Part shown: positions 22,601-28,600 of the stretch, one piece after another
How the letters are laid out: each line of letters starts with the position of its first letter
Numbering within the stretch: position 1 is the stretch's first letter
Assembly (NCBI RefSeq): GCF_030028105.1
Contig: NC_092391.1
Coordinates: 26,509,223-26,573,222 of the forward strand
DNA: 64,000 nt
DNA from: Mobula birostris
Lineage: Eukaryota
Direction: 5' to 3'
Program-made: the position numbers

Positions 22601-25600
22601 ATGGCTCCCCGCCCCTCCCCAAGTCACACACCACCTGAATTGGGAACATCATTCCTTCGTCATCACCTATGGAAATCCTGAAGCTTGCTATGTGGGTACT
22701 TTCACCAGGAATGTGGCAACTCAAGAAGGCTACACATGAAGGAGACTAGTGTTGAAATTGCAGGGGCCCTGGCAGATATATTTAAAATGTCAGTGTCTAC
22801 GGGTGAGGTGCCAGAGGATTGGAGAGCAGCTCATGTTGTTCCGGGTTTAAAAAAGGATCGAAAAGTAATCCGGGAAGTTATAGGCCGGTAAGTTTGACGT
22901 CGGTAGTGGGTAAGTTATTGGAGGGAGTACTAAGAGACAGAACCTACAAGCATTTGGATAGACAGGGACTTATTAGGGAGAGTCAACATGGCTTTGTGCG
23001 TGGTAGGTCATGTCTGACCAATCTATTGGGAGTTTTTCGAGGAGGTTACCAGGAAAGTGGATGAAGGGAAGTCAGTGGATGTTGTCTACATGGACTTCAG
23101 TAAGGCCTTTGACAAGGTCCCGCATGGGAGGTTAGTTAGGAAAACGCAGTCGCTAGGTACACATGGAGAGGTGGTAAATTGGATTAGACATTGGCTCAAT
23201 GGAAGAAGCCAAAGAGTGGTAGTAGAGAATTGCTTCTCAGACTGGAGGCCAGTGACTAGTGGTGTGCCACAGGGATCAGTGCTGGGTCCATTGTTATTTG
23301 TCATCTATATCAGTAATCTGGATGATAATGTGGTAAATTGGATCAGCAAATTTGCTGATGATACAAAGACTGGAGGTGAAGTGGACAGTGAGGAAGGTTT
23401 TCAGAGCCTGCAGAGGGATTTGGACCAGCTGGAAAAATGGGCTGAAAAATGGCAGATGGAGTTTAATACAGACAAGTGTGAGGTATTGCACCTTGGAAGG
23501 ACAAACCAAGGTAAATGGTAAGGCACTGAGGAGTGCAGTAGAACAGAGGGATCTGGGAATACAGATACAAAATTCCCTAAAAGTGGCGTCACAGGTAGAT
23601 AGGGTCGTAAAGAGAGCTTTTGGTACATTGGCCTTTATTAATCAAAGTATTGAGTATAAGAGCTGTTATGATGAGGTTGTATAAGGGCATTGGTGAGGCC
23701 GAATCTGGAGTATTGTGTTCAGTTTTGGTCACCAAATTACAGGAAGGATATAAATAAGGTTGAAAGAGTGCAGAGAAGGTTTACAAGGATGTTGCCAGGA
23801 CTTGAGAAACTCAGTTACAGAGGAAGGTTGAATAGGTTAGGACTTTATTCCCTGGAGCGTAGAAGAATGAGGGGAGATTTGATAGAGGTATATAAAATTA
23901 TGATGGGTATAGATAGAGTGAATGCAAGCAGGCTTTTTCCACTGAGGCAAGGGGAGAAAAAAACCAGAGGACATGGGTTAAGGGTGAGGGGGGAAAAGTT
24001 TAAAGGCAACATTAGGGGGGGCTTCTTCACACAGAGAGTGGTGGGAGTGTGGAATGAGCTGCCAGACGAGGTGGTAAATGCAGGTTCTTTTTTAACATTT
24101 AAGAATAAATTGGACAGATACATGGATGGGAGGTGGATGGAGGGGTATGGTCCGTGTGCAGGTCAGTGGGACTAGGCAGAAAATGGTTCGGCACAGCCAA
24201 GAAGGGCCAAAAGGCCTGTTTCTGTGCTGTAGCTTTTCTATGGTTTCTATGGTTTCTATCAACTTCTCAAAAACAATAAAGGATGGGTGCTAAATGCTGG
24301 CCTTGAACAAAGTTATTAATCTAAAAGGGTTTTCTTTACAATATTCTATCAAAAATCAATTTGAAGTTAGAAAATTACTAAAACTGTAAAAAAAACATTT
24401 TAAGAGAAAATGAGCCTGTGTCTGCCCTTGGCATGAGTAACTTAACCATTCGCTCTTTCCCTGGCCCTGAGGCTCTTTACCCTCAGAGAATTAATGTCTG
24501 CTTTCACCACCAGACACTACATGAATTGTTTTCATTCTGGTCATCCCTTGCTCTTTTACCAATTACTTTAAATCTGTCTTCTGGTTCTTGATAGTACTGA
24601 CACAAGAACAACTTCAGCCCATACTGCTAATGACATTGAACAACTTCATTAACGTCAGATTACACAAACTGAGTAGGAAGCTCTTGGGTGTCAGGAAAGG
24701 ATTTGGATTCTGCAAGCAGATCTGCACTGCTGATATACTCACTCTTTGTATATGGGATGAAGTTTCCAACTCTCATTTTTTGCACTAGTTCTGTAAGCAT
24801 CTGGTCTTCTTCCTTTGTCCATTCTTTCTTCTTCAGGTCTTTGTTATACTCTTGGTATTTTTGAAGGCACATGTAAGCAGTACGGTTTGTCTAAACATAA
24901 AGTAGAAAAAAAAAGAAAATGAAGTTTAAACATGCTAAACCTTATAAAATCACTTTTTAAATAGTCAATGGATTTATTTTCAACACACACCTATCCACTG
25001 GCCTAAGTGACTTTACGTAGATGACATAAGGTTCTGTTCAATTCCAATCTGGAACACATTGCCGGTACAGTACTGATCGATGGAGGCACTTTCAAACAAC
25101 CGAAAATATATCTTCCCCTTCACTTTCTATATCAAAAATCAGGAAATATTCACAGCTAGAAACTCTAATACAGGTTGACCTTCTATAATCCGGCACCATT
25201 GGGACCTGAGGAGTGCTGGATTTGTGAAAATGCCGAATTACAGAAGGATCACACTAAGCAATAGCTAACCACCTCATCATACCTTTAAAATATCAAAGGA
25301 TTCAAAGGTTCATTGAATGTCGGAGAAATGTATACAATATGTATCTTGAAATGCTTTTTCTTTGCAACCATCTACGAAAATGGAGTGCCCCAAAGAATGA
25401 ACGACAGTTAAATGTTAGAACTTCTAAGCTCCCCCCACCGCTCCCCTCCCTCCCGCGTATAAGCGGCAGCGAGCAATAATCCCCCCTCCCCACCGGCAAA
25501 AAATAAAGTGCACCCACTGCCAGCACTCAAGCGTGAGCTAAACGATAGCAAAGACACAGACTTGCAGTTACCCCAAAGACTACATTGCACTCGCAGTTAC

Positions 25601-28600
25601 TGAGGGAATCCTTGTTAGTTTCTTTTCCTCCGCTTAGTAATGTGCTTAAATTCAGCGGGTCACGTCTGATCTGAGGTTGTAGGCAGAAGAGAACAGAGCG
25701 CCGGCCGGGCAATGCCGGAGGGCAGTGTGCAACTGCTGGCAGGCAGACGAGAAGGCAGACCGACCCAGCGCACGCCAGCTCCCCCGCCGCTGGCGGGTGA
25801 GATGGGCAGCCGCGCCTCATGCATAAATGCAGAAAAAGCAGGAATCGCCTGTCTATGCTTACAAGAGCACGCCAACACGTGAACAGATCTAGCGCAACCA
25901 AAACAATGCGCAGCAGATTGGTACAGTGGCTCGGAAAATTTGAAATCAGTGCAGATTATCGAAGGAACCGGACTACAGGTAGTCGGATTAGTGAATGTCA
26001 ACCTGCATCAAAAACACAACTTCAACATTATGAGAAATTGTTCAAAGTAAATGGATATCCCAGATTTCTCATTGCAGGATTTGCTGTGTGTAAAATAGCT
26101 GTTTACATATAATGCTACAACACTTCAAAAATAATCTCTTGTACTTTAAGTACTACTTGGATCTTTTGAAATATCGTGAGAAGGCATTATGGAAGTACGA
26201 TTTTTTCCCCTTTATGACACAGCTTCATGAGATCGTTAGTCACAATTAACATTTCATAGTCACATATGAACAAGCAAAGCAGAGCCAAAACACTCATGGA
26301 TCTGTCAGTCATTTCCATTAGACAGAATGGGTGCCTCAATTAGAATCTTATCTTGGGATAATATGACCGAATATTATTAAGGAATTGACAGTGTTATTTC
26401 TGTGTTAGAGCCAAATGCATGAAAGGTTACAAGACTATGGAAGGTGGATAGAAGCAAGATCTAACTGGCCTTGGACTGAATGAGATAAAACAACAGGTTT
26501 GAAGGGCTGAATGCCTCACTTCTGCACTAGTATATATTCTTGCCAGTTGCTGATTAGACCTACTAGAGATACATAAAATTCAGTTTTAAGGGAATGTTGC
26601 TATTGAATTGCTCAGTAAGCTTACAAGCAGAGAAAAGCCAGTTTGCCTTGATTGGAACTCAACAGTGCACTGTGCAATATCAGTACCTTCAGCTCACTGG
26701 CAATCCACTCCCAGTCCACACAGCCACATCCCTCTGCGATTTCAATTAGCTGTTGCGTCTCTTCACCGCTCCACTGTTCTTTGTTGATGCTTGGGTGTTC
26801 AGAGTTCTGCCAGACGTTCTTAATATCTTCTGCCTTGCGACTTCCATCAAACTACAAACATAAAACAGATTTAATAGTCCAGCACAGTTTTAAGCCTTTA
26901 TAAGGCTTGTAAACTTCTCCCACTTGGGGTATTGGAGACAACACTTCCGTTTGTTGTCTAGAAGCTGCCTGAATTAGTTTACCACACCATCAGAGCAACC
27001 ATGGCCAAAGAAAACAGTCAGGACTTCACTTATCCTGATCACCATTAGGTACAGCTGGCTGGATCAGAATGTGGAGCAAGTAATCAACGTCCAAAATGAA
27101 AGAATACAAAAAAAATTGCTGAATGGCATTTGACCAAAAGGTAACAAGGAGGAAGGGGGGGGGGGGGGAAGAAGGCTTTGAAAATGTATTCAAACAAACA
27201 CTGATCAATAGATATCTAAGGAGATAGACAGATGCAGAGAGTAGAATGGGCAGAAGGTAAAAGGATGAATGGGGCGGGCGGGGGCGGGGGTGGGGAGAGA
27301 GGGGAACCAAACTGATTAACCTTAAATACACAGTACCTCCAACGTTGACATACTTACATCAATGTTGGAAATCTTTATCCAATCGTGGTCATCAAACCTA
27401 TTTCCCAACAACTGCCGTTGCGTCATCTGGCTATAAGAAAGTTAAGGAGTAACACTCTTTTATAAACCATGGCTAGAGTTGCTAATACTCACTCTCAGCC
27501 AGAAGTAAACATTATAATCAAACATCACAACTGCAATATCAAATGTTGAAAATTAATGCCTTTCATTTAGAAAACTTTAGAACAAAGACAGAACAAAACG
27601 GCAACTCGTTAGTTCACTCCATAGATATCAGAAGACAATCTAGAACAGTAAACCCAATGAAATAAAGATTATAAGCACTTTAATTTCAGCAGAGCATCTA
27701 CTGTTTCAGAAACATATACCAGTGGTAGGATACAGGAAAAGTTTGTGGCAAACAGGATATTTTCCCTGCTTGATGGTTTCCTACAAGTTTAAAGCATCCC
27801 CAAGAATACTTTGATCTTTATACCAGCATGTAACCATAAACCCCAGCAGTAGTACTTTAAAAAAATGCTATACCCGCATTCACCTCAAGGTTTTGATTAA
27901 TTTGCTCCTCATAATGCCCATGTAAATATGATTAGATTCTCAAGCCAGTTCCTCAACCATTACAACATATCTCTCTCTGCCATTTGATCAACCTTGCTCT
28001 ACATTCCTCAATATCTTCATACTCCAAACCAAAAACAAAGTTCTCAAACCCCAGGCCTGTAAAATATTGCACCATTTCTCGCCATGCAAAAATTGCAACA
28101 TTTGTCCTAGAGTGCAAACTAAGGCCACGATAGCTTGGCTTGCTCCTTGTAGCGCCCCCTGCTGAGGAATTTAAGTGTGGCATAGGTGCTCAGTATGAAG
28201 GGGACACAGTTATAACAATTAAAATAAAGATGATCATCTGTTTTAAAAATGCATTTAAAATGTCCTTAAAATAAGTTCAACACACAATCAAGGTGTTCAG
28301 GATGAGACGTGGAAACATGCAGTAACTTAGCACTCCAATAGACAGGCTGAGGGCTGTAGTAGCTCAGGCCAGTATTACCGACCCCACAACACTAGTAGAA
28401 AACAGAGTTCTCTCGGGAGTTCTGGATAAAATTGCACCCAGAACCAACAACGTTAGCTATCCATCAAAAGGAGTGCTGCTGAGGACAAGAAACAAGCTTT
28501 CTTTACTTGTTTCAGTGTGGAGTCAACTTTGTAAACGGTGATAATCTAAAGAGTACAAGTCTGGAATTAAAAACGGAAAACACGAGGAAAGTTCAGGAAA

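What the first reader, a model, noticed from the sequence alone, without database searches (positions are those of the whole stretch)
25290..25815. ITS2 + 5' 28S rDNA fragment fused to a LINE-like 3' tail: candidate rRNA-headed chimeric retroposon
Seen: on the minus strand, ~135 bp of GC-rich sequence runs directly into the first ~90 nt of 28S rRNA (25679-25588). It then switches abruptly to ~290 bp of unrelated sequence ending in a tgaacctttgaatcctttga-type tail near 25290. The octamer gcagttac occurs on both sides of the junction (25564-25571 and 25593-25600). Established: LINE machinery makes chimeras with cellular RNAs by template switching, and 28S-derived SINEs are known in mammals. Inference: the GC-rich part is ITS2, so the template was an unprocessed pre-rRNA or rDNA rather than mature 28S. 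If this junction recurs in the genome it would be a SINE-like family with an unusual ITS2/5'-28S head.
Basis: partly seen in the sequence, partly recalled or inferred. Interest (0 to 1): 0.72.

Follow-up and report, generated by a model that had tools for sequence, protein, structure and literature searches.

The report
rDNA fragment fused to unrelated tail
A short piece of ribosomal DNA (probable spacer end plus the first 92 bases of 28S) sits fused to about 300 bases of unrelated sequence inside a small DNA transposon; it looks like a one-off insertion relic, and whether it founded a repeat family could not be tested here.

Summary
Rfam places the 5' end of eukaryotic LSU rRNA at 25581-25659 (-) (69.2 bits). 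By eye and by protein-level alignment the 28S piece runs 25679-25588. A 135-nt, 70% GC stretch abuts its 5' end. About 300 nt of unrelated sequence follows its 3' end and finishes in a 9-mer tandem (25312-25293).

New here:
- The block lies between 30-nt terminal inverted repeats (25168-25197 / 25978-26008; 0 of 315 control pairs matched as well). It is therefore nested in a MITE-like element, which argues against mis-assembly.
- The 28S piece differs at three places from 21 of 21 rDNA-derived ORFs found.
- CpG is little decayed (o/e 0.75-0.84, window 0.33).
- There are no pol III boxes and no small-RNA head.

Not shown:
- ITS2 identity: three protein searches and two DNA scans found no relative.
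- LINE origin of the tail: no relative in the window or in 1.84 billion proteins.
- A target-site duplication: the candidate arises by chance in 7-10% of controls.
- Recurrence: no host genome was on hand.

Best reading: a single chimeric pre-rRNA/retroposon-tail insertion. DNA-repair capture is the main rival. Interest is modest.

The parts
25978..26008 (-). Left terminal inverted repeat of the enclosing MITE-like DNA element
   Evidence: It pairs with 25168-25197. The repeat finder reports I1 as 25 nt, 84% complementary. The extended alignment has 26 matched positions in 31 columns with one gap, score 31, reached by 0 of 315 control window pairs.
25826..25977 (-). Left internal part of the MITE-like element
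   Evidence: It lies between the TIR and the insert. CpG o/e is 0.90 for 25818-26010. There is no other copy in the window.
25815..25825 (-). Candidate 5' copy of a target-site duplication (11 nt)
   Evidence: It matches 25272-25281 at 10 positions with one gap. This is weak: 361 of 5000 shuffles and 21 of 211 control pairs score as well.
25680..25814 (-). GC-rich stretch contiguous with the 28S 5' end; probable 3' end of ITS2 (inferred)
   Evidence: It has 70% G+C, 13 CpG and o/e 0.77. It has no relative. Its fold is not better than shuffles (z +0.89).
25588..25679 (-). First ~92 nt of 28S (LSU) rRNA, pseudogene-like
   Evidence: Rfam RF02543 scores 69.2 bits. The alignment shows unpaired positions marked v. 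A 3-nt deletion and 2 substitutions set it apart from 21 of 21 rDNA-derived ORFs.
25549..25600 (-).
   Evidence: Score 27, reached by 0 of 2000 shuffles and 0 of 457 adjacent block pairs.
25313..25587 (-). Unrelated 'tail' body, with a G-rich middle part
   Evidence: It has no Rfam family and no relative in the window (best E 0.14). Its 74-aa ORF has one weak repeat-inflated hit. Its fold is not better than shuffles (z -0.54).
25293..25312 (-). Terminal 9-nt tandem repeat (about 2.3 units), the only LINE-like hallmark
   Evidence: Tandem Repeats Finder gives period 9, 2.4 copies, 91% matches.
25282..25292 (-). 11 nt of uncertain assignment (last bases of the insert, or MITE)
   Evidence: It lies between the tandem repeat and the candidate 3' duplication.
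25272..25281 (-). Candidate 3' copy of the target-site duplication (10 nt)
   Evidence: See 25815-25825.
25168..25197 (-). Right terminal inverted repeat of the MITE-like element

Best explanation
This is a relic of one insertion event nested in a small TIR-bounded (Tc1/mariner-like) non-autonomous DNA element. The inserted piece of about 525-535 bp is a chimeric cDNA.

Proposed steps (all inferred):
1. A reverse transcriptase of a non-LTR retrotransposon started on an RNA ending in a short 9-mer tandem repeat, as in the 3' tails of CR1/L2-type elements.
2. It copied about 300 nt of that RNA.
3. It then continued on a nucleolar pre-rRNA fragment. The entry point was about position 92 of 28S, where the two templates share a 12-13-nt similar stretch.
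4. It ran through the 28S 5' end into the last ~135 nt of ITS2, where synthesis or the template ended.

Shown: the parts, their order and their orientation; the nesting between inverted repeats; the junction repeat; and the moderate decay of the 28S piece.

Inferred: the ITS2 identity, the retroposon origin of the tail, and the RNA-level mechanism.

The copy has no visible promoter and is most likely a dead one-off.
For: - A real 28S 5' fragment lies in sense orientation upstream of unrelated sequence.
- The GC-rich stretch is contiguous with the 28S start.
- The 3' end carries a 9-nt tandem repeat. The neighbouring CR1-like LINE (RVT_1 at 23018-23521) also ends in a 9-nt tandem, at 24235-24259. 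Elements with such tails therefore exist in this genome.
- The block is flanked on both sides by arms of one inverted-repeat element (0 of 315 controls). It entered as an insertion into a pre-existing element, and the two flanks belong together.
- A candidate 10/11-nt duplication sits at the two ends of the whole block, and none was seen between the parts.
- A 12-13-nt similar stretch lies at the junction, as expected if homology guided the template switch.
- 28S, the ITS-like part and the tail show similar, mild CpG decay (o/e 0.84, 0.77, 0.75, against 0.33 for the window). That fits a common age.
- There are precedents. 28S rRNA/LINE-1 chimeras were found in primates (n = 18, mostly sense-oriented; PMC13174262, passages read). 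snoRNA/RTE chimeras that amplified in platypus are cited in PMC5499810 (passage read).
Against: - The candidate target-site duplication is not significant: 361 of 5000 shuffles and 21 of 211 control pairs score as well. It also leaves 11 nt between the tandem repeat and the duplication.
- The tail has no demonstrable LINE or SINE relative. Nothing turned up in the window, and only one repeat-inflated weak hit among 1.84 billion proteins.
- Neither the tail nor the ITS-like part folds better than shuffles.
- The 28S entry point is internal, whereas template jumps of non-LTR reverse transcriptases usually go to a 3' end (recalled).
- An imperfect local duplication at a junction is also a hallmark of error-prone DNA repair synthesis (recalled).
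- ITS2 identity is unverified (searches found nothing).
Confidence: 0.45

Rival explanations
1. DNA-level capture. A fragment of rDNA (ITS2 end plus 28S start), for example from extrachromosomal or broken rDNA, was patched into a double-strand break by end joining. The ~300-nt 'tail' is then not part of the insertion but older resident sequence, either the interior of the MITE-like element or another repeat.
For: - An imperfect 27/23-nt local duplication lies exactly at the 28S/tail junction. Templated, error-prone synthesis at repair junctions gives such patterns (recalled knowledge).
- No significant target-site duplication surrounds the block.
- No LINE relative of the tail was found.
- Both ends of the rDNA piece are arbitrary with respect to mature rRNA, apart from its crossing of the 28S 5' end.
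Against: - The tail ends in a 9-mer tandem like local LINE tails.
- The tail's CpG o/e (0.75) is like that of the rDNA piece and unlike the window's 0.33. However, the left arm of the MITE is also high at 0.90, so this is weak.
- There is no direct evidence for the uninterrupted MITE.
Confidence: 0.25
2. Retroposed read-through transcript. In some rDNA unit a truncated retroposon copy sits at position ~92 of 28S. A pol I co-transcript (ITS2, 28S 1-92, retroposon 3' end) was recognised through the tail, reverse transcribed and 5'-truncated within ITS2. The junction would then pre-exist in the rDNA array.
For: This predicts the same anatomy as the best explanation. It explains an internal 28S junction without a template jump, and it explains ITS2 retention.
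Against: No 28S sequence follows the tail here, which is as this model expects. No element specific for this 28S site appeared in what I read: the review PMC10946416 lists 28S-targeting LINE families R2 and R4 in the passages shown. There is no data on the host's rDNA.
Confidence: 0.1
3. A member of a multi-copy SINE-like family with an ITS2/5'-28S head that is mobilised through the shared tail.
For: - The modular head-plus-tail layout.
- The precedent of rRNA-derived SINE28 (PMC4994717, abstract).
- The precedent of snoRNA/RTE chimeras that amplified (PMC5499810, passage).
Against: - No second copy of any part exists in 64 kb.
- There is no pol III A or B box, no tRNA and no other small-RNA family.
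- No protein-database ORF crosses the junction (0 of 21 hits).
- The tail's ORF has no relatives. This is weak evidence, because the databases may not hold this genome.
Confidence: 0.1
4. Tripartite chimera. The GC-rich 135 nt is not ITS2 but a third, unrelated GC-rich RNA, joined at the mature 5' end of 28S by a second template jump.
For: The boundary coincides, within a few bases, with the mature 28S 5' end. A jump from the end of a mature template would land exactly there. Double jumps are described in Magnaporthe (PMC2104539, search listing and abstract only). No ITS2 relative was found.
Against: High G+C with a pyrimidine-rich run just before 28S is what vertebrate ITS2 ends look like (recalled, not tested). 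Contiguity is the simpler reading.
Confidence: 0.07
5. Assembly artefact joining rDNA reads to unrelated sequence.
For: rDNA is prone to mis-assembly (general knowledge). No reads were available.
Against: The block is framed by the two arms of one inverted-repeat element (0 of 315 controls). The 28S piece carries three private differences (21 of 21), unlike bulk rDNA reads. The window has no N or gap.
Confidence: 0.03

Closest known systems
[quoted passage not shown]
   Same: A fragment of 28S rRNA in sense orientation is fused upstream of retroposon sequence and inserted as one unit. The 28S segment sizes there were 50-482 nt.
   Different: In primates the partner is L1 with poly(A) and 7-17-bp duplications. 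The favoured 28S region is around position 3636. 'pre-rRNA' does not occur in that text (0 occurrences in the main text). Here the 28S piece is the extreme 5' end with ~135 nt of probable ITS2. The tail ends in a 9-mer tandem, not poly(A), and its LINE origin is unproven.
SINE28 of mammals (PMC4994717; abstract read)
   Same: It is a mobile-element-like sequence derived from LSU rRNA.
   Different: SINE28 derives from the 3' end of LSU, is pol III dependent and occurs at 27 human loci. Here the piece is the 5' end, no promoter boxes were found, and copy number is unknown.
snoRNA/RTE chimeras (snoRTEs) of platypus, as cited in PMC5499810 (passage read)
   Same: A nucleolar RNA is fused to a LINE-type 3' tail. 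That case shows such chimeras can become SINE-like families.
   Different: Those are reported at up to 40,000 copies with a defined RTE tail. Here there is one copy in 64 kb and an unidentified tail.
U6/L1 and other small-RNA/L1 chimeric retrotranscripts (Buzdin-type; cited in PMC5499810 and PMC13174262)
   Same: The 5' part comes from a cellular RNA and the 3' part from a retroposon. Template switching during reverse transcription is the proposed cause.
   Different: U6 parts are full length and end at the RNA's own 3' end. Here the rRNA part is an internal fragment of a precursor.
28S-specific non-LTR elements (R2, R4 and relatives; PMC10946416 table passages; PMC5035012 listing only)
   Same: They show a junction between 28S sequence and a retroposon.
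   Different: Those sit within rDNA with 28S on both sides. Here no 28S follows the tail, and the locus is a MITE in ordinary genomic DNA.

Membership tests
LINE-mediated chimeric retrocopy (cellular RNA 5' part + LINE 3' part) | The 5' part is a sense copy of a cellular RNA | tested here: met
   Rfam LSU_rRNA_eukarya, 69.2 bits, on the same strand as the tail's terminal repeat.
LINE-mediated chimeric retrocopy (cellular RNA 5' part + LINE 3' part) | The 3' part is the 3' end of a LINE (or SINE) family of the host | tested here: inconclusive
   The only likeness is a terminal 9-nt tandem. There is no similarity to the rest of the window, including the LINE remnants at 23018-24259 and 58248-59871. 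There is no coding relative. No host repeat library was on hand.
LINE-mediated chimeric retrocopy (cellular RNA 5' part + LINE 3' part) | One target-site duplication surrounds the whole chimera, with none between the parts | tested here: inconclusive
   A candidate 10/11-nt repeat lies at 25825-25815 and 25281-25272. An equal or better score was reached in 361 of 5000 shuffles and in 21 of 211 control pairs.
SINE | An internal pol III promoter, or a head derived from tRNA, 5S, 7SL or snRNA | tested here: not met
   No A-box or B-box pattern occurs in 25282-25817. There are 0 tRNAs. No other Rfam family is credible at E up to 1; the only other row was a 19.9-bit chance match.
SINE | Many dispersed copies sharing the same head/tail junction | not testable with these tools
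   No host genome was available. There are 0 further copies in the 64-kb window, and 0 of 21 database ORFs cross the junction.
SINE28 | [quoted passage not shown] | tested here: not met
   The match covers model positions 24-103 of 3401, which is the 5' end. The definition is from the abstract of PMC4994717.
rDNA-specific retroposon insertion (R2-like) seen in situ | 28S sequence on both sides of the element | tested here: not met
   There is no LSU match downstream of the tail at E up to 1 in 24000-27500. There is only one rRNA match in the window.
ITS2 | Lies immediately 5' of the 28S start in one continuous rDNA-derived stretch | tested here: met
   The GC-rich stretch abuts the 28S start with no compositional break.
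ITS2 | Sequence identity to the host's (or a relative's) ITS2 | not testable with these tools
   There are no eukaryotic rDNA sequences on hand. Indirect tries found nothing.
MITE (Tc1/mariner-like non-autonomous DNA transposon), the enclosing element | Terminal inverted repeats | tested here: met
   25168-25197 pairs with 25978-26008. 0 of 315 control pairs score as well.
MITE (Tc1/mariner-like non-autonomous DNA transposon), the enclosing element | TA target duplication and multiple genomic copies | tested here: inconclusive
   TA lies next to the repeat on one side and TG on the other. There is no second copy in the window, and the genome is not available.

The most novel reading that the evidence does not exclude
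The locus is a member, or the founder-type copy, of a SINE-like family in a cartilaginous fish whose head is a nucleolar pre-rRNA fragment (3' end of ITS2 plus 28S 1-92). The head would have been captured by homology-guided template switching onto a stringent-type LINE tail. Its 5' end would mark the ITS2 endonucleolytic cleavage product, the 5'-extended 28S precursor. That would show that LINE reverse transcription samples pre-ribosomal RNA inside the nucleolus.
Probability: 0.08. Interest if true: 0.6.

Novelty: new member of a known kind. Interest (0 to 1): 0.27.

Why it matters
If the GC-rich part is ITS2 and the block entered by reverse transcription, the template was an unprocessed nucleolar precursor rather than a mature ribosome. 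That is direct sequence evidence for where and on what a non-L1 reverse transcriptase can switch templates in a non-mammalian vertebrate.

So far rRNA/LINE chimeras are catalogued for primate L1 (PMC13174262). A recurrent junction would add a new kind of SINE head. As a single decayed copy, it is a minor curiosity that should be masked as an rRNA pseudogene fragment during annotation.

Tried and rejected
- Other copies in the window. blastn with word size 9 and a sensitive word-7 search of four sub-parts found nothing. The best hit had E 0.14.
- Protein-level proxy for rDNA or other copies. The 142-aa frame across flank, ITS-like part, 28S and junction gave 21 hits. All are rDNA-derived ORFs of assorted eukaryotes that match convincingly only the 28S piece.
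- The second frame (25660-26007) gave 0 hits among 8 candidates.
- The ITS-like residues 47-92 searched against longer proteins gave 0 hits among 62 candidates.
- The tail ORF against 1.84 billion representatives gave 1 hit, P0022. It is a 708-aa tandem-repeat protein. Each repeat matches at 33-38% identity and 18-29 bits, so one weak likeness is counted six or seven times. I rejected it as a relative.
- Two scans of bacterial and archaeal genome contigs, hoping for contaminating host rDNA, gave 0 matches each.
- RNA folds of the tail and the ITS-like part are not better than shuffles (z -0.54 and +0.89).
- Two tail motifs recalled from memory as typical of elasmobranch SINE/LINE tails gave only 1-mismatch matches at about chance level: 5 found against 1.9-2.0 expected. 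The one site I read was not a repeat tail.
- A fish ITS2 primer recalled from memory was not found in the paper library. The paper that names the primers does not print them in the passages shown.
- A literature search for ITS2 or pre-rRNA chimeric retroposons listed nothing relevant among its 15 top rows out of 73.
- The M16 peptidase-like ORF gave no match among solved structures.
- No host genome, repeat library or reads were available.

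
Full report
**What is there**

On the minus strand the region reads in this order:
- the left arm of an inverted-repeat element (26008-25978) and its interior (25977-25826);
- a 135-138-nt stretch of 70% G+C (25817/25814-25680);
- 92 nt of 28S rRNA starting at the gene's 5' end (25679-25588);
- about 300 nt of unrelated sequence (25587-25282) that carries a 9-nt tandem repeat at 25312-25293;
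- the right interior and arm of the same element (25281-25168).

Rfam confirms the 28S piece. LSU_rRNA_eukarya matches 25581-25659 (-), model positions 24-103 of 3401, at 69.2 bits against a gathering score of 50; the local re-scan gave 63.4 bits. It is the only rRNA match in the window. The local scan at E up to 1 gave nothing else credible in 24000-27500, and ARAGORN found no tRNA there. The window holds no N.

**The 28S piece is a decayed copy**

I translated the frame that runs across flank, GC-rich part, 28S and junction (25527-25955, 142 aa) and searched the protein collection with it. This returned 21 proteins. All are spurious ORFs read from the rDNA of assorted eukaryotes.

In a local blastp, 21 of 21 differ from the window's copy in the same three ways:
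- they carry one more residue, so the window has a 3-nt deletion just after the conserved start;
- they have Ile where the window has Thr (a T-to-C change);
- they have Gly where the window has Cys (a G-to-T change).

The cmscan alignment marks unpaired positions at the same places. None of the 21 continues past the end of the 28S match, so none is a second copy of the junction. Their alignments into the GC-rich part are gapped and of low identity, so they say nothing about ITS2.

**Age**

CpG observed/expected is 0.33 for the whole window, as in a methylated vertebrate genome. It is 0.77 in the GC-rich part, 0.84 in 28S, 0.75 in the tail and 0.90 in the left part of the enclosing element. Together with 2 substitutions and 1 indel in 92 nt, this fits a moderately young insertion whose parts are of similar age. 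An unmethylated local state is an alternative that I cannot exclude.

**Nesting**

The block lies between inverted repeats at 25168-25197 and 25978-26008 (25 nt at 84%). The extended alignment has 26 matched positions in 31 columns with one gap. None of 315 control window pairs at the same spacing scored as well. The repeat starts with a CAGG-type end, with TA beside it on one side and TG on the other. This suggests a Tc1/mariner-type MITE, a name I give from general knowledge and did not test.

The nesting argues against a mis-assembly and for an insertion into a pre-existing element.

A candidate duplication of 10/11 nt sits at 25825-25815 and 25281-25272. It would make the insert 25814-25282. 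It is not significant, however: 361 of 5000 shuffles and 21 of 211 control pairs score as well.

**The junction**

It is the start of a longer imperfect direct repeat, 25600-25574 (27 nt) against 25571-25549 (23 nt), separated by GG. Its score of 27 was reached by 0 of 2000 shuffles and by 0 of 457 adjacent block pairs in the window.

The first unit contains the last 13 nt of the 28S match. The second unit lies wholly in the tail and agrees with those 13 nt at 11 positions.

Two readings fit:
- a stretch of homology guided a switch of template from the tail RNA to the rRNA precursor;
- the duplication arose by error-prone synthesis during DNA repair.

I cannot choose between them from one copy.

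**The tail**

Its only retroposon-like trait is the terminal 9-mer tandem. The neighbouring CR1-like LINE (RVT_1, E 6.7e-24, at 23018-23521) likewise ends in a 9-nt tandem at 24235-24259. Otherwise:
- The tail resembles nothing else in the window.
- Its 74-aa frame has one hit among 1.84 billion representatives. That hit is a tandem-repeat protein in which one weak likeness is counted several times, and I discount it.
- The tail does not fold better than shuffles.
- No pol III A or B box is present in the insert.

**ITS2**

The GC-rich part is contiguous with the 28S start, and that is what defines ITS2 in an rDNA unit. I could not compare it with any rDNA. Two further protein searches and two scans of prokaryotic genome contigs for contaminating host rDNA found nothing.

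Shark ITS2 is reported at 1282-1365 bp in one genus (PMC3322161, passages). If the host is a shark, only about the last tenth of ITS2 is present here.

A rival is that the GC-rich part is a third RNA joined at the mature 28S end.

**Host**

The RT fragment's nearest Atlas clusters are chordate. The CR1-like 3' end at 24100-24259 looks to me like the common elasmobranch CR1 tail (recalled, not tested). I do not take the window for human: its 28S piece, its Tc1-like transposase remnants and its CR1-like LINE are not of human type. One exon-bearing ORF was looked at on its own.

**Comparison with the known**

- Primate 28S/L1 chimeras (n = 18, mostly in sense orientation) are in print (PMC13174262, passages). 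The term 'pre-rRNA' has 0 occurrences in that main text.
- SINE28 derives from the 3' end of LSU (PMC4994717, abstract).
- The review PMC10946416 lists only SINE28 for 28S-derived elements in its Table 2 passage and has 0 occurrences of 'ITS2'.
- Platypus snoRNA/RTE chimeras show that nucleolar-RNA chimeras can amplify (PMC5499810, passage).
- A search for ITS2 or pre-rRNA chimeric retroposons listed nothing relevant in its top 15 of 73.

I therefore know of no printed ITS2-bearing case. That statement rests on these searches only; supplementary tables were not opened.

**Verdict**

The chimeric-retroposon reading is plausible but unproven, at about 0.45. DNA-repair capture is the main rival. 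The SINE-family reading has no support from the anatomy and could not be tested.

Noticed in passing
window 22700-24259 (+): CR1-like LINE remnant. It has an RVT_1 domain at 23018-23521 (E 6.7e-24) and further open frames to 24175. It ends in a 9-nt tandem (x 2.8) at 24235-24259. The RT's nearest Atlas clusters are chordate.
   Followed up: partly
window 19287-20316 (-): Tc1/mariner transposase remnants. The Sleeping Beauty-type HTH and HTH_Tnp_Tc3_2 domains are in 19740-20186. The DDE_3 domain is in 19287-19634, in a separate frame, so the gene is broken.
   Followed up: no
window 39395-39491 (-): Full-length box C/D snoRNA Z30 (Rfam RF00288, 80.6 bits, model positions 1-97 of 97). It is presumably intronic in a minus-strand host gene.
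   Followed up: no
window about 62640-62730 (+), within ORF 62493-62828: An exon-like stretch with a Peptidase_M16 match (E 5.3e-06). From memory it resembles the zinc-site region of the mitochondrial processing peptidase alpha subunit. There was no PDB match for the whole ORF.
   Followed up: partly
window 7251-8000 and 54501-55500: The highest CpG observed/expected values in the window (0.94-1.08, with G+C up to 62%). These are candidate CpG islands or promoters.
   Followed up: no
window 59461-59871 (-) and neighbouring ORFs 58248-59329 (-): A Pfam ALKBH8_N match (E 4.4e-07) lies in a run of long open frames. From memory such matches are common in LINE ORF2 C-termini, so this is probably a second LINE remnant.
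   Followed up: no
window 48947-49035: A tandem repeat of a 30-nt unit, 2.9 copies, 74% matches (TRF score 113). It is the strongest tandem array in the window.
   Followed up: no
window 25282-25299 (-): The last 18 nt before the candidate 3' duplication can form a 7-bp hairpin in the minimum-energy fold of the tail. Its significance was not tested.
   Followed up: no
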